Below are positions 1,227 through 27,740 of a stretch of DNA of 64,000 bases, in pieces. Source of the stretch: an uncultured delta proteobacterium. GTDB taxonomy: Bacteria; Desulfobacterota; Syntrophia; Syntrophales; CAMTWB01. The stretch's first letter is position 1. Each line of letters starts with the position of its first letter. A program made the translations under genes and the position numbers. The stretch is from positions 3,507 through 67,506 of the forward strand of contig CAMTWB010000008.1 in assembly GCA_947085375.1 (NCBI GenBank). Reading direction: 5' to 3'. The notes beneath the pieces were generated by a model. That model saw only the letters and a list, made by a program, of their open reading frames with translations. It searched no databases and was not told the origin of the DNA.

Positions 1227-2642
1227 ATGGATTTACGGGACTTCATATCATTATGCGAGCAGGAAGGACAATTAAAAAGAATCACGGCGGAAGTGGACTG
1301 GGAGCTGGAGGTCTCTCATATCTGCAAGCTCGTGGAAGAGAAATCCGGCCCGGCACTTTTGTTCGAAAACGTGAAGGGCTATAAAAGTCCGGTCTTGACC
1401 GGCGCCTTCGGTACCACCCGGCGGCTGGCCATGATCCTGGGAAAGAACCCGAACCTGTCCCTGGTTGAGCTGACCAAGGAATGGGTGAGTCTCGCCGTCA
1501 AAGAGGTCATCCCGGCCAGGGAACTCCGGGAGGGGCCCATCTTCGAGAATATCATGGAGGCTGACCAGGTCAACACCTTCGCCTTTCCCTCGCCGAAGTT
1601 TTACGAACTGGACGGCGGGCGCTACTTCGGCACCGCCGTATTCATGGTAATCGAGGATCCCGAGACGGGCGACGTAAATCTTGGCACCTATCGCATGGGC
1701 ATCCTCGACGACAAAACCGTCGGCGTACAGATCCTCAAAGGAAAGAAGGCCGACCGGATCATGAAGAAGTACAAAAAGCAGGGCAGGAAGATGCCCGCCT
1801 GCGCCATTATCGGCGGCGACCCGCTCCACATCTTTGCGAGCGCTGCCACCGTAGCCAAAGCGAAAAGTGGTTACGATGTTGTAGGATCCCTGCGCGGCGC
1901 CCCGGTAGAGGTGGTGCGGAGCCAGCTCTACGGACTTCCCATTCCGGCGGCCGCAGAGATCGTCCTGGAGGGGGAGATCGATCCCGAAAAACTGAGAAAC
2001 GAAGGGCCCTTCGGCGAGTACACGGGATACTACACGGAAGAACTTATTAAGCCTATCCCCAAGCCGGCCCTGGACGTAAAAAGGATCTATTTCAGAAATA
2101 ATCCGATCCTCTGGGAGACCAGCGTGGGCCGGCCTGTTGGGGACCAGCACATGCTCTATGCCTTTGCGCGAAACGCGAGCCTCTGGACCGATCTGACCAA
2201 GATGGAGATCCCGGGCATCAAGTCGGTCTATACGCTGCCGGAAGCCTCGGGACGCTTCTGGGTGGTCGTTTCCGTACAGCAGATGTATCCGGGTCATGCG
2301 GATCAGGCGGCTGCCGCGGTAATTGCCAGCAATACCGGTTCTTACGGGGTCAAGGGCGTCATTATCGTGGATGACGATATCGAAGCCGACGATCTCCCAC
2401 GAGTATGGTGGGCACTGGGGACCCGTTACAATCCGGCCCGGGGTACGCAGATTATCAACAGGGGCCGGGCAACCCCGCTCGATCCGTCCCTGGGAGCGGA
2501 CGAGAACAAGTTCATTACCTCCCGGATCATCATGGATGCCACCATACCCTTTGAGTGGAAAATCAAACCCACGGAGATCAAGCTCACCCAGAGCGTCATG
2601 GCAAGGGTGAAGTCCCGCTGGGCGGAGTACGGCATAGACTGA
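1227..2642 (+). CDS. UbiD-family (de)carboxylase, paralog 1 (PpcA/PpcB-like)
   Basis: 471 aa with UbiD-type motifs VNLGTYR, AIIGGDP and EGPFGEYTGYY. A G-rich RBS lies upstream. Confidence 0.85.
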   Translation: MDLRDFISLCEQEGQLKRITAEVDWELEVSHICKLVEEKSGPALLFENVKGYKSPVLTGAFGTTRRLAMILGKNPNLSLVELTKEWVSLAVKEVIPARELREGPIFENIMEADQVNTFAFPSPKFYELDGGRYFGTAVFMVIEDPETGDVNLGTYRMGILDDKTVGVQILKGKKADRIMKKYKKQGRKMPACAIIGGDPLHIFASAATVAKAKSGYDVVGSLRGAPVEVVRSQLYGLPIPAAAEIVLEGEIDPEKLRNEGPFGEYTGYYTEELIKPIPKPALDVKRIYFRNNPILWETSVGRPVGDQHMLYAFARNASLWTDLTKMEIPGIKSVYTLPEASGRFWVVVSVQQMYPGHADQAAAAVIASNTGSYGVKGVIIVDDDIEADDLPRVWWALGTRYNPARGTQIINRGRATPLDPSLGADENKFITSRIIMDATIPFEWKIKPTEIKLTQSVMARVKSRWAEYGID

Positions 2643-2658: not shown

Positions 2659-3216
2659 ATGGCATTCCCGAAGGACCTGACAATAGCACAGGAAAGGGCA
2701 GGGAAGGTGAGGCTTTTTGCCCATGACATCCACGGGGTTTTGACCCCCAACCAGGTCATGAGCGATGTGGAGGGAAACAGGCAATACGCCTTCTGGCACA
2801 TGGACGGTTTTGCCGACCTTTCCCTTTCGGCCAATGAGATCAAGGTGGTCTACCTGGACAGCACCTCGATTGACGGGGAAGGACTCTACCGGGCGAAGGA
2901 ACTGAAGCTTGACAAGCTCTACTTCCGGGTGGAGGACAAACTGGCGAAACTGGAGGAACTGAGAGCGGAGTTTGGGATCAAGGATGAGGAAATCGGCTAT
3001 CTGGGCTGTGAACTCACCGATATACCCGTGATGAGACGGGTCGGCTTCGCCGTGGCCGTGGCCGATGCGATCCCCGAGGTGAAAGAGATCGCCCATTACA
3101 TTACCAATGCCCCCGGGGGGCGAGGGGCCATGAGAGAAACCTGTGAATTTATCCTGCGGGCGATGGGCAGATGGGATCTCTGGGTGGAGAAGGTCACCAA
3201 GATGGGGTACAAATAG
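2659..3216 (+). CDS. KdsC-like HAD-superfamily protein, paralog 1 (size and family of the phenylphosphate carboxylase delta subunit PpcD)
   Basis: 185 aa. HAD motif I-like HDIHGVLT and a C-terminal region typical of the KdsC subfamily (GCELTDIPVMRRVGFAVAVADA ... GGRGAMRE). AAGGAGG RBS lies 7 nt upstream. Confidence 0.75.
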   Translation: MAFPKDLTIAQERAGKVRLFAHDIHGVLTPNQVMSDVEGNRQYAFWHMDGFADLSLSANEIKVVYLDSTSIDGEGLYRAKELKLDKLYFRVEDKLAKLEELRAEFGIKDEEIGYLGCELTDIPVMRRVGFAVAVADAIPEVKEIAHYITNAPGGRGAMRETCEFILRAMGRWDLWVEKVTKMGYK

Positions 3217-3220
3217 CTAA

Positions 3221-3359
3221 TGCCAAAAGTTTCAGGAAAAGGCGCCGCAGGACGGGTGTCCACATCCACCGTAGAACAGGCGACTCGCCTGTCGGAACCT
3301 TCCTAAAGTAGTGGCGGGTTTCAAGCCCGCTCTTACATCTATAAACTTTTGACAATACG
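3221..3359. repeat. TIR-bounded intergenic repeat (member or relative of the GTAAAAAGT...ACTTTTTAC family)
   Basis: Left end TGCCAAAAGTTT (3221-3232) is the reverse complement, with 1 mismatch, of right end AAACTTTTGACA (3343-3354). There is an internal GC hairpin gcgggtttcaagcccgc. It starts 5 nt after the HAD-1 stop. Confidence 0.5.
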
Positions 3360-3369
3360 CGTAAGGCAA

Positions 3370-3741
3370 ATGAATTCTATGAGTGCCTTTAAAGTCAATG
3401 TCATAGCAGTAAACCCTAAGGGTACGGAGAAGGTCACGCCGCCCATTGAGGTTCTGGTGGATACAGGAGCCGAACTGACTTGGTTACCGAGAGATCTTCT
3501 CCTGCAGGTCGCCATAGAACCTGTCCGGAAGAGGGCCTTTGTTACAGCAACCAAGCAGATCGTCCAAAGGGAGGTAGGATATGCAATCCTTCGTTCAGAA
3601 GGATATGAGACCATTGACGAGGTGGTTTTTGCAGAGTCCGGAGATATGAACCTTCTTGGTGTCCGTACGATTGAAGGGTTCGGGGTGATGATTGACAACA
3701 TCGGCCATCGGTTTGTCGCAATCACCACCCTTGCAGTTTAG
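3370..3741 (+). CDS. Retropepsin-like (clan AA) aspartyl protease family protein
   Basis: Catalytic D-T-G-A motif (LVDTGAELTWLP), size ~125 aa, and a C-terminal IEGFGVMID segment typical of bacterial retropepsin-like proteins. Start uncertain (ATG 3370 or 3379; the track start 3349 is the TTG of a repeat end). Confidence 0.65.
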   Translation: MNSMSAFKVNVIAVNPKGTEKVTPPIEVLVDTGAELTWLPRDLLLQVAIEPVRKRAFVTATKQIVQREVGYAILRSEGYETIDEVVFAESGDMNLLGVRTIEGFGVMIDNIGHRFVAITTLAV

Positions 3742-3886
3742 GGGGCCAAAGCCTTAACAGTTTCAAAGAGGGACAGAATATTTTATCGAAAGGTGAAATC
3801 ATTTTTAAAATCGAATTGACGGAGCCGGCAATGTCTGATTTGGAAGGTATTTGAGAGTATATTGGAAGGGACTCGGAATATTTTAA

Positions 3887-3903
3887 AAACTTTTGACATT
3901 ACG
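3887..3903. repeat. Solo copy of the repeat end AAACTTTTGACATTACG
   Basis: 16 of 17 nt are identical to 3343-3359 (AAACTTTTGACAATACG), in the same orientation. It lies 24 nt upstream of the HAD-2 start. Confidence 0.5.
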
Positions 3904-3926
3904 ACAAATAATGGAGAGGAGGGGAC

Positions 3927-4439
3927 ATGGAAAACGAGGAAGCCATTGAAAAGGCCAAAAAGGTAAAATTCGTCATCCTCGATATTCACGGGGTCTTGAC
4001 GGACAATACCCTCTATTACACCCAGGCCGGGGTCAAATCGGAATGCTTTTCTCTCCATGACCGGCTGGGCTGCAAATCCCTCATGGAAGCGGGCATCGGG
4101 GTTGCCTTTCTCACGAGCAAGGTGGGAAGAGACGTGGAACAGATGGCAAAGGTTTACGGAGTACCGGCGGATAAGGTTTGGGGAACTTCGGCGAAAATGA
4201 CCAAGCTGGATGAGTTCGAACGGGAATCGGGCTATACGGACCAGGATATCTGCTACGTAGGGGATGAGATGATCGATCTTGGCATCATGAAAAGGGTTTT
4301 CTTTTCCGTGGCCCCGGCCGACGGTTCCCATGAAGCGAAGGCGATTGCCGATTACATCACGGCGGCAGGCGGCGGCAAGGGTGTGGTGAGGGAGCTCGCG
4401 GAATTCATCCTGCGGGCGCAGGGGAAATGGCATAAATAG
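3927..4439 (+). CDS. KdsC-like HAD-superfamily protein, paralog 2 (PpcD-like)
   Basis: 170 aa with LDIHGVLTDN, VGDEMIDLGIMKRV and GGGKGVVRE, paralogous to 2659-3216. GGAGAGGAGGGG RBS. Confidence 0.75.
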   Translation: MENEEAIEKAKKVKFVILDIHGVLTDNTLYYTQAGVKSECFSLHDRLGCKSLMEAGIGVAFLTSKVGRDVEQMAKVYGVPADKVWGTSAKMTKLDEFERESGYTDQDICYVGDEMIDLGIMKRVFFSVAPADGSHEAKAIADYITAAGGGKGVVRELAEFILRAQGKWHK

Positions 4440-4526: not shown

Positions 4527-5984
4527 ATGCCCTACAAATTTTACAAAGACAACCGGGAATTTATGAAGGCCCTTGAGGCAAACAATGAACTTGCCACCAT
4601 TGAGCAGGAGGTGGACTGGGACCTCGAGATGGGCGCCATTGTGAGAAGGGTCTGTGAAAGGAAGTCAGCCGCCCCCTATTTTAAAAAGATTAAGGACTAC
4701 CCGGGATTCGAAGCCTTCGGCGCCCCCATGTCTACTTGGAGAAGACTGAATATTGCCATGGGTTTAGATGCTGACACTCCTATTTCAAAGCTTCAAGATG
4801 AATATGTCAGGCGGATAACGGAGCCGCGGATAAAGGCAGTTTTGGTAGACAAGAAGGATGCCCCCTGCAAAGAAAACGTAATACATGAAGATGATGTTGA
4901 CCTATTAAATCTTCCTGCGCCAATGGTCCACGGGGGAGATGGCGGCCGATACCTCTGCACCTGGCATATGGTAGTGTCCAGAGCCCTTAAAAACTACGAC
5001 GATGTTAATTGGGGAATGTATCGGCAGATGATATTTGATGAAAAGACCCTGGTAGGGCCAATCTTGCCCTTTTCCGATACGGGGAAGATGTTTTACGAAC
5101 AATATGCACCCCTGAACAAGCCTATGCCTGCCGCTATAGTCATTGGAATGGATCCGCTTGCAGGAATTGCCGCCTGTGCTCCTGCAGCATATCCAGAAAG
5201 CGAATATACCGGTCAATTAATGGGCGCTCCGATAGAACTGGTAAAATGTGAGACCGTGGATTTAGAGGTCCCCGCCCACGCCGAAATCATAATAGAAGGG
5301 GAAATGATTCCAAATGTCGGACTGGAAGAGGCTCCATTTGGAGAATATACCGGTTATAGAACCTCACCAAGGGCAAATCGCACGGTTTTTAAAGCAAAGT
5401 TAATCACACACAGGAATAAGCCCATTCTTACCGTTTCTAATATGGGAGTCCCAACAGATGAAGGGCAGCTCCTCCGTTCATTCTCATTGGCGCTTGAAAT
5501 GAGAAAGTTATTGGAAAGCCAGCTGCTTCCTATCACCGGCATCTACATGCTTCCGGAATCGACTCACCACTTGGTAGTGGTAGGGGTAAGGCCCGCTTAC
5601 CCTGGCATAGCCCAGCAGATTGCCCACATTGTATTCGGCAGTAAGCTTGCCCCTTGGTTTCACATGGTAATGGTGGTAGATGACAAGACAGACATCTACA
5701 ATATAAATGAGTTAGTCCATGATTTCTGCACCAAGCTCCATCCGACCCAGGGGATCCATAAGTATGAAAGGCATGTCGGAACCCCTCTTTATCCCTTCGC
5801 TCATCCTATCGATAGGAAATATGGAAGGGGAGACAAGGTGCTATTTGATTGCCTCTTCCCGCTGGATTGGCCAAAGGCTGAATTGCCAATAAAGGTTAGT
5901 TTTAGCAATAAGGATATATATCCTGAAGAAATTCAGAAAAAGGTTTTACACAATTGGAAGGCATATGGATTTAAGGAAGATTAG
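4527..5984 (+). CDS. UbiD-family (de)carboxylase, paralog 2
   Basis: 485 aa with VNWGMYR, IVIGMDP, PESEYTGQLMGAPIELVKCETVDLEVPAHAEIIIEGE and EAPFGEYTGY. AAGGAGA RBS. Confidence 0.85.
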   Translation: MPYKFYKDNREFMKALEANNELATIEQEVDWDLEMGAIVRRVCERKSAAPYFKKIKDYPGFEAFGAPMSTWRRLNIAMGLDADTPISKLQDEYVRRITEPRIKAVLVDKKDAPCKENVIHEDDVDLLNLPAPMVHGGDGGRYLCTWHMVVSRALKNYDDVNWGMYRQMIFDEKTLVGPILPFSDTGKMFYEQYAPLNKPMPAAIVIGMDPLAGIAACAPAAYPESEYTGQLMGAPIELVKCETVDLEVPAHAEIIIEGEMIPNVGLEEAPFGEYTGYRTSPRANRTVFKAKLITHRNKPILTVSNMGVPTDEGQLLRSFSLALEMRKLLESQLLPITGIYMLPESTHHLVVVGVRPAYPGIAQQIAHIVFGSKLAPWFHMVMVVDDKTDIYNINELVHDFCTKLHPTQGIHKYERHVGTPLYPFAHPIDRKYGRGDKVLFDCLFPLDWPKAELPIKVSFSNKDIYPEEIQKKVLHNWKAYGFKED

Positions 5985-6090: not shown

Positions 6091-6399
6091 ATGCAGAAGA
6101 AATGGGATACCTTCATCTTGACCAAGTTGAGCGAGGTGGTTGAGGATAAAGAGGAACTACGGACTATACGAGACATAACTCCAGGAGTGGGAACCCGTAA
6201 ATATAGATGTATGCTTGTTAAGGCTCTCATTTCAAAAAAACCGGACAAATACCCGGATCAGCTTCAGGTAAGGTTAGGCAGAGGGCAGTTAACTCCTCAT
6301 GTATGGTCTATCAAGATAACTGAAGAGATAGACTTGGCCAAGGGGATACCCACTAAGCCGTATCATATGTCAGGAGGAATTGCTTTGGAAGAAGACTAA
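6091..6399 (+). CDS. Small protein (102 aa), candidate small subunit of the carboxylase complex (position and size analogous to PpcC; homology unverified)
   Basis: Strong RBS (GAGGAGG 7 nt upstream). Paralogous to the next ORF (RDITPG..KYPDQLQVRLGRGQL versus RDVEPG..KYPDILWIRLGRGQL). Confidence 0.6.
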   Translation: MQKKWDTFILTKLSEVVEDKEELRTIRDITPGVGTRKYRCMLVKALISKKPDKYPDQLQVRLGRGQLTPHVWSIKITEEIDLAKGIPTKPYHMSGGIALEED

Positions 6400-6441
6400 A
6401 CCTTCTCCGATTCCAATGATTTAGAGGAAGATGTAGAGACG

Positions 6442-6633
6442 GTGGGCGTAATCAGGGACGTGGAACCGGGCTGGAAGAAGTACCGGTCCACCTACGCCCG
6501 CTATCTGGTCTCGAAGGATGCCGTGAAATATCCCGACATCCTCTGGATAAGACTAGGCCGGGGCCAGTTGGTCGCTACGCCCTGTTCGGCTAAGATTCTG
6601 GAGCTGATCAATGTCATCCCCCAAGGCATGTGA
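6442..6633 (+). CDS. Small protein (63 aa from GTG), paralog of 6091-6399
   Basis: Shares the KYPD..RLGRGQL core with the upstream ORF. It is in the same reading frame, separated only by TAA (6397-6399) and 14 sense codons. The start codon is uncertain. Confidence 0.5.
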   Translation: MGVIRDVEPGWKKYRSTYARYLVSKDAVKYPDILWIRLGRGQLVATPCSAKILELINVIPQGM

Positions 6634-7966
6634 GACGATTGATTCCCTGGGAGAATATCTGGCGTTCATGGAGGCCCGGGGGTGGCTCCTGACCATCCGT
6701 GAGGAGGTCGGGAGGAAGGATATCCCGGCCTTCATGGAGCGACTGTCGGGCCTGCGAAAGGCACTGCTCTTTGAGGCGGTGGCAGGTTACAACTGCCGGC
6801 TGGCGGCGAATATCGTCCCCTCCCACGAGGTCTTCAAGGTGCTTTTCGGCACGGAGAATCCCTATGACTACTTTCTCCAGGGGATACAGAAAACGGCGGG
6901 AAAGATCCTCCTTTCCGAACGGAAACTCGAAACGACAAGGGTGGCAGATCGGGATCTGACCGATTTTCTCCCCATCCTGACCCATTATGAAAAGGATTCG
7001 GCGCCCTTTATCACCACGGGCATTGTCTCCTCGCCCGATCCGGAGTCGGGCGTGGTGGGCCGGGGAATTCACCGGCTGGAATACCGGGGAGGGAATCGGC
7101 TCGGCCTGGCCCTGCTCAACCCTCCCCTTACCACGATTCGTGATAAATACCGGGCGCGGGGAGAGGCGATGCCGGTGGCCATCACCATCGGGGTTGATCC
7201 GGTGATCTTCCTCTCGATGGCCCTCAAGTCGCCTCCCGGAACGGACAAGCTGGAGGTAGCGGGAGGCCTGAAGGGAAGGGGGGTGGAGGTGATCGGCGCC
7301 TGTAATTCCTCTGCCGATGTCCCGGCCGCAGGCGAGTTCCTCCTGGAGGGATGCCTCGATGAGGGCAAAAGAAAGATAGACGGCCCCTTAGGGGAAATCA
7401 GCGGCTATTATCTGACCTTCGAGGAGTCCCCCACGGTCCTGGTGGACCGGCTGTCGCACCGGGAGAACCCCATCTACCATGCCCTCCTGCCCACGGCGCT
7501 GGAGGCCGATGCCTACCTGACCTTCGTCAGCCGGGCCCATCTGGAAGAAAACGCGAAGCGGCTTTTCCCCTTTATTGTGAACATTGCCTATATTCCCGGG
7601 ACCTTTGGCTCATCCCTCGTGGTTTGCGTCAAGACGGCGGAGAAATTCCGGATCAGAAATCTCCTCCTCTTTCTCCTTTCCTTTCCCATGATCAAGAAGG
7701 CCGTCATTGTGGATGATGATGTGAACCCGGAGGATTTGCGGGATGTGGAATGGGCCGTGGTGACCCGGTGCAAGGCCGACGAGGATATTATCATCCTGAA
7801 TCGTCTCCAGGGGCAGCCCATCGATCCCCTGGCCCAAGACACCTACGGGGTGACCAAGATCGGCATCAATGCCACGGTTGCGGGCAAAAGAATCGCCGAT
7901 CGGGTCAAGGTGACGGGCGGAAATACGGAGCGGATTGAGCGGATCATCTGCTCTCTGGGTTTTTGA
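6611..7966 (+). CDS. UbiD-family protein, paralog 3 (divergent)
   Basis: 451 aa with ITIGVDP, GPLGEISGYY and VIVDDDVNPEDLRDVEWAV. The NxGxYR motif is replaced by GRGIHR. It overlaps the preceding ORF by 23 nt. Confidence 0.8.
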   Translation: MSSPKACETIDSLGEYLAFMEARGWLLTIREEVGRKDIPAFMERLSGLRKALLFEAVAGYNCRLAANIVPSHEVFKVLFGTENPYDYFLQGIQKTAGKILLSERKLETTRVADRDLTDFLPILTHYEKDSAPFITTGIVSSPDPESGVVGRGIHRLEYRGGNRLGLALLNPPLTTIRDKYRARGEAMPVAITIGVDPVIFLSMALKSPPGTDKLEVAGGLKGRGVEVIGACNSSADVPAAGEFLLEGCLDEGKRKIDGPLGEISGYYLTFEESPTVLVDRLSHRENPIYHALLPTALEADAYLTFVSRAHLEENAKRLFPFIVNIAYIPGTFGSSLVVCVKTAEKFRIRNLLLFLLSFPMIKKAVIVDDDVNPEDLRDVEWAVVTRCKADEDIIILNRLQGQPIDPLAQDTYGVTKIGINATVAGKRIADRVKVTGGNTERIERIICSLGF

Positions 7967-8031: not shown

Positions 8032-9369
8032 ATGCCGCATCACAAGACATCCTGCTGGAATCCCCTCTTGGAGACCTTGCCCCGGGAGAGGCTCCGGGCG
8101 TTGCAACTGAAGAAATTTCAGCGGATTTTTGCCTGGGCCTATGATAACTCGCCCTTCTATAGAAGGCTCTATCAGGAGGCAGGTATAGAACCGGGGGATA
8201 TCAAGAACTTCGAGGACATCAAACGGGTTCCCAAGACGGACAAGGGGATGTTGAGAGAGGTTCAGAGCCGTCCCCCCTTTCCCTACGGGGATATCCTCGC
8301 GGTGCCCCTTGCGGAGGTCACCGCCTTTCGTCAAACCAGCGGCACCACAGGAACGCCCGTTTATCAAGCCGATACCTGGCAGGACTGGGAATGGTGGGCA
8401 GAGTGCTGGGCCTATATCCTTTACGCCCAGGGTTACAGAGACACCGACCGGGTTTTCATTCCCTTTGGCTACAATATTTTTGTGGCCTTCTGGGCCGGGC
8501 ATTACGGCGCAGAAAAACTGGGCTGCGAGGTCGTTCCCGGCGGGGTTTTGGACACCCGGGCGCGGATCATGAAGATGCAGGAACTAAAATGCACCGCCTT
8601 CATGGCCACGCCAACCTATGTCCTGGGGATGGCCGATGCGGCGAGGGAAATGGGCCTCGATCCAGCGAAGGATTTGTTCATCGAGAGGATCACCTGCGCC
8701 GGCGAACCGGGCGCCAGCATTCCCGCCACGAAACGGCGGATGGAGGAGGTCTGGGGCTGCCGGGTGTTCGATCATATCGGCGCCACGGAAATAGGGGCCT
8801 GGAGCTATGCCTGTCTCCAGCAGGAAACGGACCTCCACGTCAATGAGGCCTTCTTTCTGGTAGAAATCGAGGACGAACAAACCGGAGAGATTAGGGAAAC
8901 GCCGGCTAACCCGGGCAAAATGATCATTACCGCCTTCGACCGGCTGGGGAAGCCCTGTATCCGTTTTGATTCCAAGGATGTGATCCGCTGGGCGGATGGC
9001 GTCTGCGCCTGCGGCCGCACCTTCCGCTCCATCGAAGGGGGCGTAGTGGGCCGGGCGGATGACATCACCAAGGTTAAGGGGGTCCTCCTGGCCCCGACGG
9101 CAATCGAAGAGGTGGTGCGCGGCTTTGCCGCACTGGCCGATGAATATGAGGTACTGGTAACGAAAAAGGCGGACATAGACGACATTCTGCTTAAAGTGGA
9201 AATCAACCCCGGTTTTGAAGGCCAGGAAGAACGAATCCTCGCTCAACTGAAGGACCAACTCCGGGTGGTGACGAATCTTGGTTATCGGGTAGAGGTCCAT
9301 CCCCACGGGAGTCTCCCCCGTTACGAGGTAAAGGCCAAACGGTTCAAAGATTTGAGAAAACAGGAGTAA
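8032..9369 (+). CDS. Phenylacetate-CoA ligase (PaaK)-like adenylate-forming enzyme / aryl-acid CoA ligase
   Basis: 445 aa with the AMP-binding motif FRQTSGTTGTPV and PaaK/F390-synthetase family architecture. AAGGAG RBS. Confidence 0.8.
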   Translation: MPHHKTSCWNPLLETLPRERLRALQLKKFQRIFAWAYDNSPFYRRLYQEAGIEPGDIKNFEDIKRVPKTDKGMLREVQSRPPFPYGDILAVPLAEVTAFRQTSGTTGTPVYQADTWQDWEWWAECWAYILYAQGYRDTDRVFIPFGYNIFVAFWAGHYGAEKLGCEVVPGGVLDTRARIMKMQELKCTAFMATPTYVLGMADAAREMGLDPAKDLFIERITCAGEPGASIPATKRRMEEVWGCRVFDHIGATEIGAWSYACLQQETDLHVNEAFFLVEIEDEQTGEIRETPANPGKMIITAFDRLGKPCIRFDSKDVIRWADGVCACGRTFRSIEGGVVGRADDITKVKGVLLAPTAIEEVVRGFAALADEYEVLVTKKADIDDILLKVEINPGFEGQEERILAQLKDQLRVVTNLGYRVEVHPHGSLPRYEVKAKRFKDLRKQE

Positions 9370-9372
9370 CCC

Positions 9373-9555
9373 TTGGAAAATCAGGAAACGATCATCCAAC
9401 TGGACGAAAAAATCACCAGGCTGAGACAGGCCGCCCTGGATGTCCTGGCCTCCGGCGGCGAAATTGAGGCGGTAAAACGCAATATTACAAAAATCCTGGC
9501 CAATACCAGGATGCTCGAACTCAATGTCTCGGATGTTAGAGAGGCTGAGAGGTAG
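9373..9555 (+). CDS. Small hypothetical helical protein (60 aa, TTG start)
   Basis: The ORF begins 3 nt after the ligase stop. No recognisable motif. Confidence 0.35.
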   Translation: MENQETIIQLDEKITRLRQAALDVLASGGEIEAVKRNITKILANTRMLELNVSDVREAER

Positions 9556-9557
9556 AT

Positions 9558-9607
9558 AGGCTGAAGGCTATTAGGCTAAAAGACTTTCAGCCTTCAGTCT
9601 TCAGCCT
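9558..9607. terminator. Stem-loop between convergent genes (candidate bidirectional terminator)
   Basis: AGGCTGAAGGCT (9558-9569) can pair with AGTCTTCAGCCT (9596-9607; one G-T). It lies between the + strand ORF end (9555) and overlaps the Nudix stop (9594). Confidence 0.3.
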
Positions 9608-10160
9608 TCCGTCTCGTTCCCTCGCCCTGCTGCATGAAAAGGTGGTAGAAGGCGGCGATTACGAGGGCATTGGTGATGGCCCCCTCCCTGATGAGTTGCG
9701 GTATCTCCGCCAGCGGTTTTAAAATCACCGCAATATCCTCCCGTTCATCCTGGTCCTGTCCGCCGGCAAGATAGACGTCCCGGGCCAGATAGGTGAAGCA
9801 GCGGTTATTGAGGATCGCCGGATTGGGATGAACGCTTCCCAGACAAAGCAGGTCGTGACATTGATAGCCCGTTTCTTCCCGCAGTTCCCGCCGGGCCGCC
9901 TCCAAGGGCGGATCGTGATCCGTAAGCCCCCCGGGAATCTCCAGGGTTAAATCCCGGATGCCATGCCGGTACTGCTGCACGAGGACCACCTCATTTTGGG
10001 GGGTAAGCGGAATCACATTGACCCAGGTTGCTGATTCCAGGATGTAGAACTCGTGGGACTCTCCGGTCCGGGGAGAAGCGGCCCGGTCGGTGCGGATCCG
10101 GAAAATCCGGTAGGACTTGTCCAGGCAACTGGAAATAACCCTCCAGGGCTTAGGCGGCAT
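9594..10160 (-). CDS. Nudix hydrolase (ADP-ribose pyrophosphatase/NudF-like)
   Basis: Nudix box GGLTDHDPPLEAARRELREETGY (GX5EX7REUXEEXGU). Confidence 0.85.
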   Translation of the reverse strand: MPPKPWRVISSCLDKSYRIFRIRTDRAASPRTGESHEFYILESATWVNVIPLTPQNEVVLVQQYRHGIRDLTLEIPGGLTDHDPPLEAARRELREETGYQCHDLLCLGSVHPNPAILNNRCFTYLARDVYLAGGQDQDEREDIAVILKPLAEIPQLIREGAITNALVIAAFYHLFMQQGEGTRRKAED

Positions 10161-10261
10161 TTTTATCTCTCCTCTTTTGTGTCCACATGAAACCCCACCA
10201 ACTTGCCAGAAAAATTTTTCATCGCCTTATCTGCCCCCCTGATGACGGAAGTGGAAAAGCT

Positions 10262-11245
10262 TTACAGGCCAGCCCGGTACAACATTTCCCTTATCCTTTC
10301 CCGGACCGTCTCTACCATCTCCGGATGAAGAACAGGGCTTACGGGGCGCCAATTTTGCCAGGGTCCCAGGATATCACGGTAAAGGACCGCACAGGCCCGG
10401 GATATTTCCACCCTTCCCTGCGGGTCAACAACCGTTATACATTCCCCTAACGCCTGCACAAGACGATCCCTTTCCCCTTCGTCCTCCGTGTGGAATACGA
10501 CCACCCGGGTCGGGGCATCGGCCAGCGAGGCTCCAAACTTGCCGTACACATGTCCCCCGGGAAACCGTTTTTCATACTCGGCAAGGAGAGAAAGGCAATC
10601 ATCAAGGCTGGAGACGACGGCGGCGACCTTCCAGCAATTATAGGCCGAATTCAGGGTGATGACGTCGGACCCGGCCCGCAACTGCCCGTAGAGGTTCTGA
10701 ATGCAGGGCAGGCATTTCCCGTAGATGTTTTCCTTGTTTTGCTTCAGGGCGGGGTCGCTCTCAAAACTGACCCAAAAACTGCCGCCCTCCCGGTAGGGTA
10801 TCTTTCCCACGTATATCTGCCAGGGTGTATGACTGTTACTTCCGGATAAGGCGTAAGAAATGGTCAACAGGTCTCCATCATAGAGTCCCAGGGTTTCTTT
10901 GATATGAACCGGGGCCAGTATTTCCACGATATTTTCCCCGTGGACGTTTACCTCACCGGCGGGGATGATTAAGGCCCCCGCAATATCGCCCAGCCTGATC
11001 CCGATCGCTCTGGCCCGGCAATAATCTGGGTCGGGGGGGATCAGTTCCACCCCGTCCTCCTCTCGCAGACGGCGGAGAGAGGAATGAGAGTCCTTCGCTA
11101 CCTCCAGGTTAAGCGTCCCCGGGTAAGGCTTGAAACCCAGCTTCTCCCCGCATTGCCTTTGCACCCAATCCAGTTGCGTGAAAAAGGTCGCCTTACCCGT
11201 TCCGCTTTTTATACGGCCGGTGATCTGTAAACAATCATGTTCCAT
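10262..11245 (-). CDS. Archaeal-type (CTP-dependent, MJ0056/RibK-like) riboflavin kinase domain fused to a ~190-aa uncharacterised C-terminal domain
   Basis: The N-terminal ~135 aa carry GRIKSGTGKATFF, GFKPYPGTLNLEV and ENIVEILAPVHIKETLGLYDGD, matching the pattern I recall for MJ0056. The C-terminal half has no motif I recognise. Confidence 0.65.
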   Translation of the reverse strand: MEHDCLQITGRIKSGTGKATFFTQLDWVQRQCGEKLGFKPYPGTLNLEVAKDSHSSLRRLREEDGVELIPPDPDYCRARAIGIRLGDIAGALIIPAGEVNVHGENIVEILAPVHIKETLGLYDGDLLTISYALSGSNSHTPWQIYVGKIPYREGGSFWVSFESDPALKQNKENIYGKCLPCIQNLYGQLRAGSDVITLNSAYNCWKVAAVVSSLDDCLSLLAEYEKRFPGGHVYGKFGASLADAPTRVVVFHTEDEGERDRLVQALGECITVVDPQGRVEISRACAVLYRDILGPWQNWRPVSPVLHPEMVETVRERIREMLYRAGL

Positions 11246-11262
11246 AATTGCCCCGGTCCGTG

Positions 11263-11895
11263 TTACCGAAACCCTTGCGGCGTCATCTTACTTCGCTTTC
11301 CCGGCTTCCGGAGATTCTGCGCCCGCTGGCCATCCTCCCTTGTCCATCTTTGGAAAATGGGAAGTTTGATCCCGAAAAAATCCAGGGCCCGGCCGACCGT
11401 CTGATTCACAATATCTTCTATGGTCCGGGGTCGCCCGTAAAAACTGGGAATGGCCGGCATGATGAGGGCGCCCATCTCCGCGACCTGGAGCATCAGACGG
11501 AGGTGTCCCTTATGAAAGGGCGTTTCCCTGACCATCAGGAGGAGCCTTCTTTGTTCCTTCAGGGTTACATCGGCCGCGCGGATCAGCAGATTTACATTGA
11601 AAGAATTGGCCACGCCGGAGAGGGTTTTTATCGAGCAGGGGACCACGGCCATGCCGATGGTTTCAAAGGAGCCGCTGGCAATCGCCGCCCCGGTATTGTC
11701 AATGTCGTGGACGACATCGGCCAGACCCGTAACATAGTCAAGGGTATAATCCGTCTCCAGCATCAAGGTTTTCTCCGCCGCGTCCGAGATGACCAGATGC
11801 GTCTCGATATCGGTTTCCCTCAAGACCTCCAGCATCCGGACCCCGTAAACCGCCCCTGTTGCCCCCGATATGCCTATGACCAGTCTCTGCTTCAT
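11263..11895 (-). CDS. ubiX: UbiX flavin prenyltransferase (prFMN synthase)
   Basis: MKQRLVIGISGATGAVYG..., PCSIKTLSG and LKEQRRLLLMVRETP are typical of UbiX/Pad1. Start set at ATG 11895, preceded by AAGGGGAGGA. Confidence 0.9.
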   Translation of the reverse strand: MKQRLVIGISGATGAVYGVRMLEVLRETDIETHLVISDAAEKTLMLETDYTLDYVTGLADVVHDIDNTGAAIASGSFETIGMAVVPCSIKTLSGVANSFNVNLLIRAADVTLKEQRRLLLMVRETPFHKGHLRLMLQVAEMGALIMPAIPSFYGRPRTIEDIVNQTVGRALDFFGIKLPIFQRWTREDGQRAQNLRKPGKRSKMTPQGFR

Positions 11896-11915
11896 GTTCC
11901 TCCCCTTTAGATCAA

Positions 11916-12250
11916 TTATCTTCCCTTCAAGGAATTCCTGATAAGTTGAACGGGATGGGTTACCGGCAGACCCGTGAGATGGTGGATCTGCATCCGGCAA
12001 CCCTCGCAATCGGAGACCACCAAATCGGGATTAAGGTCCCTGATGGCCGCAGCCAGATCCGCGCCTATGGCCTGAGAAATGTCGTATTTCTCCTTCTTGA
12101 ACCCAAAGGCCCCGGCCAGACCGCAACAGTCCGCTTTGATCAGCTCCACCTCCAAGCGGGGGATCAGTTTCAGAAAATCCAGCGCCGGCAGGGAGATGCC
12201 GAGCACCTGAGATGACAGGGGGCAAAATAGGCCACCTTCCGGGGCAGGGG
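11916..12250 (-). pseudogene. Truncated, frameshifted remnant of a CCG-domain (HdrD/GlcF/LutA-like) Fe-S oxidoreductase
   Basis: The C-terminal CCG motif is intact (IKADCCGLAGAFGFKKEKY ... DCEGCRMQI). The upstream CCG-type segment KVAYFAPCHL sits in a different frame (shift near 12205-12215). Nothing resembling the N-terminal 4Fe-4S ferredoxin part lies upstream. Confidence 0.6.
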
Positions 12251-22892: not shown

Positions 22893-23800
22893 TGTTTCGC
22901 CTTCTTCAGTAATCCCCAGAGGTGCTTGGCCTCCGGGCGGTGGGCGAGCGCCTCGCCAACCAGCCTTTCCCAACCCTCATAATCCGCCTTGTCCTCGTAT
23001 ATCTTGAAAATCGTCCGGGTGACAAAATGGTCTTCGGGATTCTGGACAAAAACGCCCTTCAGGTGGATGGCGGCCCGCTGTCTGTCGCCCATCTTATAAT
23101 AGGCATAGCCCAGCATCTTGCGGGTAAACGGATGATCCTTAATGGCAAGGAGCCTGGTATAAATCTCGACCGCCTGGTCGAATCTCTCCATTTTTTTATA
23201 GAGATCGGCCAGATAAAGATGAAGATCGTAATCCGCGGCATATTCGGGCAGGGCCATGATTGTCTCGATCTCGATTGCCGCCTGGGCTGGACTCTTGGCA
23301 GCGAATTTCTGCTGGTAATAGGTAAATCTGCTGGTGCCGCCAACCGTCTCTTCGCCGGCCAGGGCGATCTTCTTCAGAGGTTCGCTTTGGGGAAATCTCG
23401 CCAGCGCCTGCCTGAGGACATCCTTCCCCTTTTCTGCTCCCAGGGACCTTGCCGCTGCTTCCACCAGGAAGACAAAAAAAACCTCATTGCCCACCCCCCA
23501 AGAGAAGATGGCGTTGATTAACTTTTCCAGGTCATCCTTGGCCTTCTCCCGCTGAAGAATCAGGACGTAAGTGCGGAGGAAAAAGCTGTTGTTTTTAAGG
23601 AGTTCCACCCGGCCTTCCGCCTTAGTTCTCGCTTCCTTTATCTTCCCGAGCTGAAAAAGCAGATGGACCTCGTTGCCTAAAAGAAAGAGGTTGGTCGGAT
23701 AGATGGTCAGGGCCTCCTTCAGCGCCTCATAGGCCCCGCGGTAGTCCTTCTTTCTCTCCAGTGCGATGATTAGGTCAACGTATGCTCGGGCGTCGGTCAT
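22865..23800 (-). CDS. TPR-repeat protein
   Basis: 311 aa of repeated 34-aa-like A/Y/L helical hairpins (e.g. YRGAYEALKEALTIYP, DQAVEIYTRLLAIKD, GDRQRAAIHLKGVFVQNP). Its 3' end overlaps the ATPase-PglZ start by 28 nt. Confidence 0.75.
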   Translation of the reverse strand: MTDARAYVDLIIALERKKDYRGAYEALKEALTIYPTNLFLLGNEVHLLFQLGKIKEARTKAEGRVELLKNNSFFLRTYVLILQREKAKDDLEKLINAIFSWGVGNEVFFVFLVEAAARSLGAEKGKDVLRQALARFPQSEPLKKIALAGEETVGGTSRFTYYQQKFAAKSPAQAAIEIETIMALPEYAADYDLHLYLADLYKKMERFDQAVEIYTRLLAIKDHPFTRKMLGYAYYKMGDRQRAAIHLKGVFVQNPEDHFVTRTIFKIYEDKADYEGWERLVGEALAHRPEAKHLWGLLKKAKQWQKSSATS

Positions 23801-26603: not shown

Positions 26604-26673
26604 TTGTGTTTGTGGATATCGGCATATCCGTGGCTTACATGTAATCTGAGGTGAATAGACAAAGGAGAAGACC

Positions 26674-27699: not shown

Positions 27700-27740
27700 G
27701 GTGGCGGCAACCTGCTTTCGCAAACAATGTTGATACGAGA

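What the first reader, a model, noticed from the sequence alone, without database searches (positions are those of the whole stretch)
9594..11895. Possible dedicated prFMN cofactor supply operon: UbiX + archaeal-type riboflavin kinase fusion + Nudix hydrolase
Three genes lie on the minus strand facing the UbiD cluster, in the transcription order ubiX (11895->11263), a protein with an MJ0056-like N-terminal half (11245->10262), and an ADP-ribose-pyrophosphatase-like Nudix hydrolase (10160->9594). MJ0056 is the archaeal CTP-dependent riboflavin kinase RibK. UbiX makes prenylated FMN from reduced FMN and dimethylallyl monophosphate (DMAP). A riboflavin kinase would supply FMN. A Nudix enzyme could convert DMAPP to DMAP, since NudF/NudB-type Nudix enzymes are known to remove phosphate from prenyl diphosphates. 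Bacteria normally use the bifunctional ATP-dependent RibF, so an archaeal-type kinase domain here, next to ubiX, is unusual. A three-gene prFMN precursor module would be a tidy and, as far as I know, uncharacterised arrangement.
Basis: inference. Interest (0 to 1): 0.65.

Follow-up and report, generated by a model that had tools for sequence, protein, structure and literature searches.

The report
Flavin-cofactor supply genes beside phenol carboxylase
Next to a phenol-degradation gene cluster, an anaerobic bacterium carries a small operon that likely makes the prenylated flavin cofactor those enzymes need, and one of its genes contains an uncharacterised four-cysteine domain that travels with flavin and isoprenoid genes in many anaerobes.

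Summary
The three minus-strand genes are real and lie at the stated coordinates. They are a UbiX flavin prenyltransferase, a protein with an N-terminal archaeal-type riboflavin kinase (RibK, DUF120) domain, and a NudF-type Nudix hydrolase. The facing cluster is a phenylphosphate carboxylase set (ppcB/D/D/A/C, one extra UbiD, a CoA ligase).

The prFMN-supply idea is partly supported. RibK genes recur beside UbiX and UbiD genes in other anaerobic aromatic degraders. In strain NaphS2 the equivalent block is about 2-fold induced on naphthalene in published arrays.

The Nudix part is weak. In four of five other lineages its 63-73%-identical orthologues follow a DinG-like helicase. None of the five lies near a flavin gene.

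The C-terminal 192 residues of the "fusion" belong to a rare family with four invariant cysteines. It has no Pfam match and no convincing fold match. It is normally a stand-alone 191-aa protein. In 24 of 39 lineages it sits within 3 kb of type-2 IPP isomerase, PNPOx-like flavoproteins, HAD hydrolases, RibK or UbiD genes.

Its role is unknown. It is a candidate for one of the unassigned steps of prFMN biogenesis in strict anaerobes.

The parts
11263..11895 (-). ubiX: UbiX-family flavin prenyltransferase, 210 aa, first gene of the unit
   Evidence: NF004685 scores 254 bits (cutoff 188) and Pfam Flavoprotein gives E 1.4e-38. A Shine-Dalgarno-like run, AGGGGAGG, precedes the ATG. The gene is 89.9% identical in DNA to L003.
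10841..11245 (-). N-terminal domain (aa 1-135) of the 327-aa fusion protein: archaeal-type CTP-dependent riboflavin kinase (RibK/DUF120) domain
   Evidence: PF01982 scores 90.6 bits (cutoff 25). The domain aligns over its full length to MJ0056 (2p3m, E 1.7e-11) and Ta1064 (3cta). G10, G15, P40, G43-T44-x-N46, P95, E108 and D123-G124 are invariant with the two solved archaeal kinases and eight bacterial homologues. The domain falls below the NCBIfam equivalog cutoffs.
10262..10840 (-). C-terminal domain (aa 136-327, plus stop codon) of the fusion: an uncharacterised Cys4 domain that is normally a stand-alone 191-aa protein
   Evidence: Hundreds of stand-alone homologues share 51-63% identity with it, and none carries a Pfam domain. 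Pfam gives no hit even at E<=10 and NCBIfam gives none. C178, C181, C204, C285, K206, G235 and K/R236 are near-invariant in 128 family members. The AF2 model has pLDDT 78, and its only Foldseek-PDB match at E<=0.001 is an 84-residue de novo designed protein aligned to part of the model (TM about 0.3 by query length), so it is not informative. Only 87 representative clusters exist among 1.84 billion proteins.
9594..10160 (-). NudF/NudE-like Nudix hydrolase, 188 aa, last gene of the unit
   Evidence: PF00293 scores 49.5 bits. The best NCBIfam model is NudE at 74 bits, below its cutoff of 169. The closest solved protein is 5c7q 'NudF protein' (E 1.4e-21). A strong Shine-Dalgarno sequence, GAGGAG, precedes the start. 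Orthologues elsewhere lie next to a DinG-like helicase.
9373..9555 (+). small conserved ORF (60 aa, TTG start) convergent on the Nudix gene; it belongs to the DNA block shared with L003
   Evidence: DNA homology with L003 runs from 10173 to 9363 at 85% identity, and the peptide is conserved. It has no significant Pfam hit. The only terminator-like hairpin downstream of Nudix (9512-9493) lies inside this ORF.
1227..2642 (+). ppcB-type UbiD-family subunit (presumed prFMN client)
   Evidence: TIGR02724 scores 669 bits (cutoff 469).
4527..5984 (+). ppcA-type UbiD-family subunit (presumed prFMN client)
   Evidence: TIGR02723 scores 646.5 bits (cutoff 564.6).
6091..6633 (+). two PpcC (gamma)-like small ORFs, at 6091-6399 and 6442-6633
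   Evidence: PF09662 scores 61.2 and 36.3 bits (cutoff 25).
6611..7966 (+). third UbiD-family decarboxylase/carboxylase (presumed prFMN client)
   Evidence: All three UbiD Pfam domains are present. Its homologue is followed directly by ubiX in L010 and L017.
8032..9369 (+). PaaK-type aryl-CoA ligase, convergent with the Nudix gene
   Evidence: AMP-binding_C_2 and AMP-binding domains are present, and TIGR02155 scores 239 bits, below its cutoff. Homologues flank the same module in L010, L017 and L019.
11916..12206 (-). remnant of a CCG-domain (Fe-S-binding) gene just upstream of ubiX; it marks the synteny break
   Evidence: The translation contains CCGLAG...CEGC and lacks an N-terminal part. Homology with L003 stops at 11906. 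The CCG-domain assignment rests on my reading of the motif, not on an HMM search.

Best explanation
ubiX and the ribK::Cys4 fusion gene form a compact unit that supplies prenylated FMN (prFMN) to UbiD-family enzymes. The neighbouring phenylphosphate-carboxylase-type subunits are the obvious clients.

Proposed mechanism:
- The RibK domain phosphorylates riboflavin to FMN. By homology with archaeal RibK the phosphate donor would be CTP (inferred).
- UbiX prenylates reduced FMN with dimethylallyl (mono)phosphate to give prFMNH2. This is established chemistry of the UbiX family.
- The C-terminal Cys4 domain is a separate accessory protein family of strict anaerobes. It belongs to the same flavin/prenyl supply chain. 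It most likely binds a metal or Fe-S centre through its four invariant cysteines and handles the flavin after RibK. That could mean reduction or hand-over of FMN to UbiX and IDI-2, or O2-independent redox maturation together with PNPOx-like partners. A role in forming DMAP from DMAPP is a less likely alternative.
- The Nudix gene is probably a housekeeping NudF-type pyrophosphatase that happens to end this operon in Smithellaceae. It may contribute DMAPP->DMAP activity, as E. coli NudF does, but nothing here shows that.

What is shown: gene identities, domain architecture, cross-genome co-localisation, and co-induction in NaphS2. What is inferred: every catalytic step, and the role of the Cys4 domain.
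For: 1. Identities are firm.

2. The fusion links two proteins that elsewhere are separate, neighbouring genes. Of 27 distinct genome loci encoding the Cys4 protein, neighbours within 10 kb are RibK in 10, PNPOx-like in 9, HAD in 7 (always together with RibK), UbiD in 7, UbiX in 6 and IDI-2 in 6. Control loci built around the Nudix orthologues have none of these except one HAD.

3. In 106 loci de-replicated to 39 lineages, 24 have PNPOx, IDI-2, HAD, RibK or UbiD within 3 kb. The commonest same-strand downstream genes are IDI-2 (12 loci) and PNPOx-like (10 loci) out of 81 evaluable loci. The IDI-2 assignment is firm: TIGR02151 scores 372 bits against a cutoff of 281.

4. L017 carries ligase-ppcB-D-D-A-C-UbiD-UbiX-small ORF-RibK-HAD-Cys4, all on one strand. 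In L010 and L026 UbiX is followed by ribBA.

5. In NaphS2 this block is the continuation of the naphthalene carboxylase cluster. In the published arrays it is induced on naphthalene versus benzoate: NPH_5865 (UbiX-type) 2.3-fold, NPH_5868 (HAD) 2.7, NPH_5869 (DUF120) 2.4, NPH_5876 (the Cys4 protein, assigned by gene order) 2.0 and NPH_5877 (IDI-2) 1.8. Several of these are also induced versus pyruvate (PMC2988823, Tables S1 and S6).

6. The ubiX + fusion block is conserved as a unit (89.9% DNA identity) in a second Smithellaceae genome whose upstream context is completely different.

7. The family is confined to anaerobes, including Syntrophorhabdaceae and Dethiobacteria. The literature states that the physiological oxidant for prFMN maturation in strict anaerobes is unknown (PMC13040415).
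Against: - No biochemical data exist for any of these proteins.
- The RibK domain misses the NCBIfam equivalog cutoffs.
- 15 of 39 Cys4 lineages show no flavin-related neighbour within 3 kb. One abundant clade sits next to a NERD-UvrD helicase.
- The window itself lacks IDI-2, PNPOx-like and module-type HAD genes.
- In L003 the unit lies among housekeeping genes, not next to UbiD genes.
- The NaphS2 induction is only about 2-fold. It covers a long region, so it may reflect read-through.
- Whether Ppc-type enzymes use prFMN has not been demonstrated directly. One study reports activity of related carboxylase subunits with plain FMN (PMC7500099).
- The Cys4 domain shows no fold similarity to the known prFMN-binding proteins.
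Confidence: 0.6

Rival explanations
1. Three enzymes each deliver one precursor: RibK makes FMN, Nudix converts DMAPP to DMAP, and UbiX joins them. The extra half of the kinase protein plays no particular role.
For: The gene order and tight spacing fit an operon. NudF-family Nudix enzymes of E. coli dephosphorylate DMAPP to DMAP for prFMN (Wang 2018, as cited in PMC12359138). The closest solved homologue is a NudF. The trio is conserved in three Smithellaceae assemblies. In other genomes a different phosphohydrolase (HAD) accompanies RibK and the Cys4 gene (7 of 8 unfused RibK loci). This could be a non-orthologous replacement. A UbiD-UbiX-Nudix polycistronic transcript was reported in a benzene-degrading culture (PMC5852087).
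Against: Five independent Nudix orthologues (63-73% identity) lie in housekeeping contexts. Four of them sit directly after a DinG-like helicase, and none is near UbiX, UbiD or RibK. In L003 about 680 bp, containing an opposite-strand ORF, separate Nudix from the fusion gene. The C-terminal domain is far too conserved, and too consistently linked to flavin genes, to be irrelevant. The HAD genes could equally be the phosphatase of riboflavin synthesis.
Confidence: 0.2
2. This is ordinary housekeeping adjacency. UbiX serves menaquinone or other UbiD enzymes generally. The DUF120 protein is simply this lineage's riboflavin kinase. Nudix is a general ADP-sugar pyrophosphatase. The position next to the ppc cluster is accidental.
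For: In L003 the same block follows trkH, leuS and lptE. The upstream side in the window is a rearrangement junction marked by a gene remnant. The rest of the window is housekeeping. Stand-alone DUF120 kinases are common in Desulfobacterota metagenomes: 190 clusters at E<=1e-10.
Against: RibK, Cys4, UbiX and UbiD recur together in several unrelated lineages, in one case within a single co-directional ppc operon (L017). In NaphS2 they are co-induced with the carboxylase genes. This rival disputes only the word 'dedicated'. It still leaves a prFMN supply function intact.
Confidence: 0.12
3. The Cys4 domain has nothing to do with flavins. It could be a zinc-binding regulatory or nucleic-acid-related module. 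Its fusion to RibK and its neighbourhoods would then reflect lineage-specific synteny.
For: 17 of 106 loci have a NERD-UvrD helicase as neighbour. One distant member is fused to a Pol-beta-type nucleotidyltransferase. Four-cysteine sites are often structural zinc sites. No flavin-binding fold was detected.
Against: The helicase context collapses to 2 of 39 lineages after de-replication. Flavin and prenyl neighbours occur in 24 of 39. The fusion to RibK occurs in three assemblies. The NaphS2 homologue is co-induced with UbiX, IDI-2 and RibK.
Confidence: 0.08

Closest known systems
UbiX-UbiD prFMN system with its accessory proteins (LpdD prFMNH2 chaperone; PhdC/YclD prFMN maturase)
   Same: A UbiX gene is clustered with UbiD-family enzymes and with small accessory genes that help cofactor supply or maturation. 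PNPOx-like and flavoredoxin-type FMN-binding proteins accompany the Cys4 gene in related loci. PhdC is reported to have a short-chain flavin-reductase fold (PMC13040415).
   Different: The Cys4 domain has no detectable sequence or fold similarity to LpdD, PhdC, UbiX or UbiD. PhdC-like proteins are described only from Actinomycetota and use O2 or ferricyanide. The present family is confined to strict anaerobes. No kinase or isomerase genes are part of the described systems.
E. coli DMAP supply by Nudix hydrolases (NudB, NudF, NudI, NudJ) and ThiM (Wang et al. 2018, cited in PMC12359138)
   Same: It involves a NudF-family Nudix enzyme that could turn DMAPP into the UbiX substrate DMAP.
   Different: In E. 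coli these are unlinked, promiscuous housekeeping enzymes. Here the gene is adjacent to ubiX, but only in one family-level lineage. Its orthologues elsewhere are linked to a DinG-like helicase. Activity was not tested.
Archaeal CTP-dependent riboflavin kinase RibK (MJ0056; Ta1064/RbkR with an N-terminal HTH)
   Same: It has the same domain (PF01982) with the family's invariant GxG, PxGTLN, E and DGD positions. As in RbkR, the kinase domain accepts fusion partners.
   Different: The host is bacterial. The fusion partner is C-terminal and is an unknown Cys4 domain rather than a DNA-binding domain. The bit scores are far below the NCBIfam equivalog thresholds. Related bacterial genes carry yet another unknown accessory domain or ORF of about 95 aa.
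Bacterial RibF (bifunctional riboflavin kinase / FMN adenylyltransferase)
   Same: A riboflavin kinase is fused to a second domain that acts on its product. This is the analogy that makes a flavin-handling role for the Cys4 domain attractive.
   Different: There is no homology in either domain. Here the context points to prFMN rather than FAD.
Phenylphosphate carboxylase gene cluster of Thauera aromatica and related phenol degraders (ppcABCD with UbiD/UbiX-like ORFs)
   Same: ppcA and ppcB pass the equivalog thresholds. PpcC-like and PpcD-like genes, an extra UbiD and a UbiX are all nearby.
   Different: The window has duplicated PpcC-like and PpcD-like genes and no phenylphosphate synthase. 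The RibK::Cys4 gene does not appear in any open-access paper I could search.

Membership tests
UbiX flavin prenyltransferase | Sequence matches the curated family model above its threshold over the full length | tested here: met
   NF004685 scores 254 bits (cutoff 188) and TIGR00421 scores 236.5 bits (cutoff 108.9); residues 3-185 match model positions 2-185 of 187.
UbiX flavin prenyltransferase | Catalyses FMNH2 + DMAP -> prFMNH2 | not testable with these tools
   This needs an enzyme assay.
CTP-dependent riboflavin kinase (RibK, PF01982 / NF040694) | Domain model matched above the Pfam gathering score | tested here: met
   90.6 bits against a cutoff of 25, covering model positions 2-119 of 121.
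CTP-dependent riboflavin kinase (RibK, PF01982 / NF040694) | Reaches the NCBIfam equivalog threshold (same function as the characterised archaeal enzymes) | tested here: not met
   NF040694 scores 64.4 bits (cutoff 168) and NF010762 scores 70 bits (cutoff 279).
CTP-dependent riboflavin kinase (RibK, PF01982 / NF040694) | Conservation of positions shared by the solved kinases MJ0056 and Ta1064 | tested here: met
   G10, G15, P40, G43, T44, N46, P95, E108, D123 and G124 are invariant in an 11-sequence alignment that includes both solved enzymes. Which of these contact CDP or FMN was not checked against the structures.
CTP-dependent riboflavin kinase (RibK, PF01982 / NF040694) | Uses CTP rather than ATP; substrate is riboflavin | not testable with these tools
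   This needs an enzyme assay.
Nudix hydrolase, ADP-ribose pyrophosphatase (NudF/NudE) group | Nudix box GX5EX7REUXEEXGU and the Nudix fold domain | tested here: met
   The box reads GGLTDHDPPLEAARRELREETGY, with D in place of the first E. PF00293 is above its cutoff. The best solved homologues are NudF/ADPRases.
Nudix hydrolase, ADP-ribose pyrophosphatase (NudF/NudE) group | Equivalog-level match to a characterised enzyme (NudE) | tested here: not met
   NF008736 scores 73.9 bits against a cutoff of 169.
   Five independent orthologue contexts contain none of these genes, and four have a DinG-like helicase upstream. Linkage is seen only in three Smithellaceae assemblies.
   This needs an enzyme assay.
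Known prFMN accessory proteins (LpdD, PhdC/YclD) | Sequence or fold similarity of the Cys4 domain to these proteins | tested here: not met
Phenylphosphate carboxylase (neighbouring cluster) | Alpha and beta subunits at equivalog level, plus gamma and delta subunits | tested here: met
   Alpha scores 646 bits (cutoff 565) and beta 669 bits (cutoff 469). Gamma-like ORFs pass Pfam PF09662. The delta-like ORFs are below the TIGR02726 cutoff (106 and 118 bits against 282), so that part is only family-level.

The most novel reading that the evidence does not exclude
The stand-alone 191-aa Cys4 protein is fused to RibK in this window. It may be a missing, anaerobe-specific component of prFMN biogenesis. 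One possibility is a metal or Fe-S redox partner. With the PNPOx-like flavoproteins encoded next to it, it would reduce FMN for UbiX and IDI-2, or carry out the O2-independent oxidation of prFMNH2 to the active iminium form. The other possibility is that it is the enzyme producing DMAP from the DMAPP made by the adjacent IDI-2. In that case the RibK::Cys4 fusion would deliver both UbiX substrates.
Probability: 0.25. Interest if true: 0.85.

Novelty: new variant of a known kind. Interest (0 to 1): 0.62.

Why it matters
UbiD-family (de)carboxylases activate phenol, naphthalene and probably benzene in anoxic environments. They are also sought-after biocatalysts for CO2 fixation. Getting them active in heterologous hosts is limited by cofactor supply and maturation.

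Three questions remain open. Where does DMAP come from? Who reduces FMN for UbiX? What replaces O2 in prFMN maturation in strict anaerobes? The PhdC paper states the last question explicitly (PMC13040415).

This locus points to a concrete, small and testable set of candidate genes that anaerobic aromatic degraders keep next to UbiX and UbiD. The set comprises an archaeal-type riboflavin kinase, IDI-2, HAD hydrolases, PNPOx-like flavoproteins, and above all an unannotated four-cysteine protein family. If the Cys4 protein acts in this pathway, co-expressing it could unlock the activity of recalcitrant anaerobic carboxylases. A protein family currently labelled 'hypothetical' would also gain a function.

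Tried and rejected
- **FMN riboswitch or other RNA element upstream of ubiX.** Rfam gave no hit at gathering thresholds anywhere in the window.
- **Operon end.** The only terminator-like hairpin after Nudix (9512-9493) lies inside a conserved convergent small ORF. It cannot be taken as the operon terminator. No convincing promoter was found. Promoter-like matches (4 found, 2.0 expected) are near chance.
- **Cytidine-deaminase-like zinc site.** A profile hit to dCMP deaminase around the C-x-x-C motif has E 0.49. There is no H/C-A-E motif and no fold support, so this was rejected.
- **Similarity of the Cys4 domain to LpdD, PhdC, UbiX or any Pfam/NCBIfam family.** None was found.
- **The PNPOx-like neighbours as PhdC homologues.** Sequence search finds only Rv2991/GSP26-type PNPOx proteins and not PhdC. 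I claim only 'FMN-binding split-barrel type'.
- **The opposite-strand 187-aa membrane ORF inserted in L003.** I suspected a CTP-dependent prenol kinase (Sec59/VTE5-like). There is no Pfam or NCBIfam support, so the idea was dropped.
- **The divergent FGGY kinase and PLP decarboxylase as part of the module.** They are not conserved with the block in L003 and are separated from it by a gene remnant, so they were rejected.
- **NERD-UvrD helicase as the 'true' partner of the Cys4 protein.** It is confined to 2 of 39 lineages.
- **Literature.** No held paper combines prFMN with 'riboflavin kinase', DUF120 with UbiX, or naphthalene carboxylase with isopentenyl. Subscription-only papers were not searchable, including Schuhle & Fuchs 2004.

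Full report
**1. Observation**

The three minus-strand ORFs are present exactly as described (translations).

- ubiX (11895->11263, 210 aa) passes the curated UbiX model: NF004685 scores 254 bits against a cutoff of 188.
- The middle gene (11245->10262, 327 aa) carries Pfam PF01982, the CTP-dependent riboflavin kinase domain (DUF120). The match covers residues 13-129 at 90.6 bits against a cutoff of 25.
- The RibK domain aligns over its whole length with the solved archaeal kinases MJ0056 (2p3m, E 1.7e-11) and Ta1064 (3cta). In an alignment with both solved enzymes and eight bacterial homologues, G10, G15, P40, G43-T44-x-N46, P95, E108 and D123-G124 are invariant.
- The RibK domain does not reach the NCBIfam equivalog cutoffs (64 bits against 168, and 70 against 279). 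So it is a family member, but equivalence of function is not established.
- The third gene (10160->9594, 188 aa) is a Nudix hydrolase with an intact Nudix box. Its closest solved homologues are NudF-type ADP-ribose pyrophosphatases (5c7q, E 1.4e-21). Its best NCBIfam model is NudE, below cutoff.
- The spacers are 17 and 101 nt, and each start codon has a Shine-Dalgarno-like run upstream.

The plus-strand cluster that these genes face is a phenylphosphate-carboxylase-type set:

- ppcB scores 669 bits on TIGR02724 (cutoff 469).
- There are two KdsC/PpcD-like genes.
- ppcA scores 646 bits on TIGR02723 (cutoff 565).
- There are two PpcC-like ORFs, a third UbiD and a PaaK-type CoA ligase.

Exact-sequence look-ups and near-identical relatives place the window in a Smithellaceae (Syntrophales) MAG.

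**2.

Only residues 1-135 of the middle protein are RibK. Residues 136-327 match hundreds of stand-alone proteins of about 191 aa at 51-63% identity. All are 'hypothetical' and none carries a Pfam domain.

- The RibK fusion occurs only in the window and in two other Smithellaceae assemblies.
- The domain has no Pfam hit even at E<=10, no NCBIfam hit, and nothing in a profile search of PDB sequences.
- An exhaustive HMM search of 1.84 billion representative proteins finds only 87 clusters, so the family is rare.
- Across 128 members, including 25 distant ones, four cysteines are essentially invariant: C178, C181, C204 and C285 in fusion numbering, in the motifs C-x-x-C, C-W-K and R-[GA]-C. K206, G235-K/R236-x-G238 and two tryptophans are likewise conserved. 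The histidines are not conserved.
- This pattern suggests a Cys4 metal or Fe-S site plus a basic pocket. That is inference.

**3. Genomic associations of the Cys4 family**

A scan of one genome per species found 24 loci. All are Desulfobacterota. They include the naphthalene degrader NaphS2 (two copies), Desulfosarcina cetonica and tar-biofilm MAGs. Named distant members come from Syntrophorhabdaceae and Dethiobacteria.

Seeded phmmer searches of 27 distinct loci, each with up to 10 kb of flank, gave these neighbour counts:

| Neighbour | Loci (of 27) |
|---|---|
| RibK (two as fusions) | 10 |
| PNPOx-like FMN-binding protein | 9 |
| HAD hydrolase (always together with RibK) | 7 |
| UbiD | 7 |
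| UbiX | 6 |
| FMN_dh-type protein, identified as IDI-2 | 6 |

- The FMN_dh-type protein is type-2 IPP isomerase: TIGR02151 scores 372 bits against a cutoff of 281.
- Control loci centred on the Nudix orthologues had none of these genes apart from one HAD.
- Adding 80 metagenome loci and de-replicating at 75% identity gives 39 lineages. Of these, 24 have PNPOx, IDI-2, HAD, RibK or UbiD within 3 kb.
- The commonest same-strand gene immediately downstream is IDI-2 (12 of 81 evaluable loci), followed by PNPOx-like (10 of 81).
- A NERD-UvrD helicase neighbour is frequent in raw counts (17 loci) but collapses to 2 lineages.

Three loci are particularly telling.

- L017 has ligase-ppcB-D-D-A-C-UbiD-UbiX-small ORF-RibK-HAD-Cys4, all on one strand.
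- L010 (Desulfosarcina) has Cys4-HAD-RibK next to ppcD-D-A-C-UbiD-UbiX-ribBA.
- L026 (NaphS2) has UbiD-93 aa-UbiX-RibBA-HAD-RibK-SCP2-HAD-HAD-ABC ATPase-ABC-2 permease-Cys4-IDI-2-PNPOx-SdhB/A-like-PNPOx.

Starting instead from RibK, the core unit is small ORF-RibK-HAD. In one case it lies between two UbiD genes.

**4. Published expression data**

The NaphS2 cluster in L026 continues directly from the proposed naphthalene carboxylase genes, NPH_5855-5865. The supplementary tables of DiDonato et al. 2010 (PMC2988823) give these fold changes:

| Locus tag | Product (assignment) | Naphthalene vs benzoate | Naphthalene vs pyruvate |
|---|---|---|---|
| NPH_5865 | UbiX-type | 2.30 | - |
| NPH_5868 | HAD | 2.67 | 2.42 |
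| NPH_5874 | ABC ATPase | 2.07 | 1.76 |
| NPH_5875 | ABC-2 permease | 2.32 | - |
| NPH_5876 | 'hypothetical protein' | 1.97 | 1.70 |
| NPH_5877 | IDI-2 | 1.83 | about 1.8-1.9 |

A dash means no value was retrieved. NPH_5876 is the only ORF between the ABC-2 permease and IDI-2, so it is the Cys4 protein. The paper's text never mentions riboflavin, isopentenyl or UbiX. The induction is modest and spans a long region, so it amounts to co-regulation, not proof of function.

**5. The Nudix gene**

- The protein has more than 3000 homologues. The best are 63-73% identical and spread across Desulfobacterota.
- Five independent orthologue contexts were inspected. Four place the gene directly after a DinG-like helicase (DEAD + Helicase_C_2, about 640-656 aa). 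One places it next to HSP20/Lon. None has a flavin-related neighbour.
- Adjacency to ubiX-fusion is restricted to three Smithellaceae assemblies.
- In L003 about 680 bp, containing an opposite-strand ORF, separate Nudix from the fusion gene.
- A DMAPP->DMAP role remains chemically plausible, because E. coli NudF and relatives do this for prFMN (Wang 2018, cited in PMC12359138).
- The fact that HAD hydrolases occupy the equivalent place in other loci could be read as functional replacement. But those HADs could equally be the phosphatase of riboflavin biosynthesis, particularly next to ribBA.

**6. Is the unit dedicated to the ppc cluster?**

DNA homology with L003 covers 11906-10262 (89.9%) and 10173-9363 (85.2%). 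It stops 11 bp upstream of the ubiX start codon.

- Upstream in L003 are trkH, leuS and lptE.
- Upstream in the window is a remnant of a CCG-domain gene, followed by a divergent FGGY kinase.
- So the block moves as a unit between contexts. Its position beside the ppc genes in the window is suggestive but not conserved within the family. In other orders (L010, L017) the integration with ppc genes is tight.
- The remainder of the window is housekeeping: cydABDC, PPDK, MazG, LPS genes and the dcw cluster. It contains no ribF, IDI-2 or PNPOx-like gene.

**7. Interpretation**

The best-supported reading is that ubiX plus ribK::Cys4 is a prFMN supply unit for UbiD-family enzymes.

- RibK makes FMN, and UbiX prenylates it.
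- The Cys4 domain is an uncharacterised accessory component of the same flavin/prenyl supply chain in strict anaerobes.
- Its fusion to RibK and its operonic position before IDI-2 and PNPOx-like flavoproteins point to handling of FMN or FMNH2, or to a redox role. IDI-2 and UbiX both need reduced FMN, and IDI-2 makes DMAPP. DMAP formation is an alternative.
- None of this has been biochemically tested.
- The field regards both the DMAP source and the anaerobic oxidant for prFMN maturation as open questions (PMC13040415; PMC12359138).
- No held paper links riboflavin kinase/DUF120, IDI-2 or this family to prFMN. Subscription literature could not be searched.

**8. Verdict**

- The arrangement is a new variant of a known kind of system, namely UbiX/UbiD with accessory genes.
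- The Nudix component is probably incidental.
- The real lead is the Cys4 family.
- Interest is 0.62. The most novel reading still open is that the Cys4 protein is a missing anaerobic prFMN biogenesis factor. I rate that at about 0.25 probability, with high interest if true.

Noticed in passing
window 6442-6633 (+): A second, shorter PpcC (gamma-subunit)-like ORF of 63 aa lies directly after the first (6091-6399) and just before the third UbiD gene. PF09662 scores 36 bits against a cutoff of 25. It may be a dedicated small subunit for that UbiD.
   Followed up: partly
window 2659-3216, 3349-3741, 3927-4439 (+): Two PpcD/KdsC-like HAD phosphatase genes are separated by an ORF with a sub-threshold match to clan AA aspartic proteases (TIGR03698, 41 bits against a cutoff of 57). 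Tandem PpcD-like pairs also occur in L010 and L017.
   Followed up: partly
window 9373-9555 (+): A conserved 60-aa ORF (TTG start) lies between the CoA ligase and the Nudix gene, convergent on Nudix. Its peptide is conserved in L003. It has no significant family match. The only terminator-like hairpin of the region lies inside it.
   Followed up: partly
window 11916-12206 (-): This is a C-terminal fragment of a CCG-domain (HdrD/GlpC-like Fe-S) protein with the motifs CCGLAG...CEGC and no N-terminal part. It looks like a gene remnant sitting exactly at the synteny break with L003. The domain call rests on my reading of the motif; no HMM search was run on this fragment.
   Followed up: partly
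L009:2312-2632, L010:11691-12047, L017:7005-7337, L020:161-613; fused in L026:5199-5879 (N-terminal) and L019:10817-11584 (C-terminal); also L044-L047: An unannotated domain or ORF of about 95-118 aa accompanies the bacterial RibK genes. Its motif is Y[DE]FAASAGA[LF]EGY...LP.W...L...Y. It occurs as a separate upstream gene or fused at either end of RibK. It has no Pfam match and is absent from the window.
   Followed up: partly
L010:18869-19462 then 19455 onward; L026:2508-3200 then 3133-4407: In Desulfosarcina and NaphS2, ubiX is immediately followed by (and overlaps) ribBA, which encodes DHBP synthase / GTP cyclohydrolase II. A riboflavin biosynthesis gene is thus embedded in a UbiD/UbiX carboxylase cluster.
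   Followed up: partly
L003:7042-7605 (-): A 187-aa multi-pass membrane ORF lies on the opposite strand inside the roughly 680-bp segment that separates the fusion gene from Nudix in the Smithellaceae relative. It is absent from the window and has no family match.
   Followed up: partly
L034-L043 (Nudix orthologue loci): The Nudix orthologue is consistently encoded directly downstream of a DinG-like helicase (DEAD + Helicase_C_2) in several Desulfobacterota lineages. This conserved pair may point to the Nudix enzyme's real, nucleotide-related role.
   Followed up: no
window 18264-22973 (-) and 22865-23800 (-): A 1569-aa protein with DUF6079 and AAA_16 matches is followed by a TPR protein. This large ATPase of unknown function lies between the acyl-CoA dehydrogenase genes and the cytochrome bd operon.
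   Followed up: no
window 25230-31096 (+): Cytochrome bd oxidase genes cydA and cydB are followed by an ABC-transporter ORF that may be cydD, in what is presumably a strictly anaerobic syntroph. The next ORF (29453-31096) was not scanned.
   Followed up: no
window 45163-48132 (+): A single 989-aa ORF contains two full sets of Mur-ligase domains. It appears to be a murE-murF fusion within the dcw cluster.
   Followed up: no
P0155 (425 aa, metagenome): One distant member of the Cys4 family is fused to an N-terminal Pol-beta-type nucleotidyltransferase domain (PF18765/PF01909). This is a second, different fusion partner whose meaning is unclear.
   Followed up: partly
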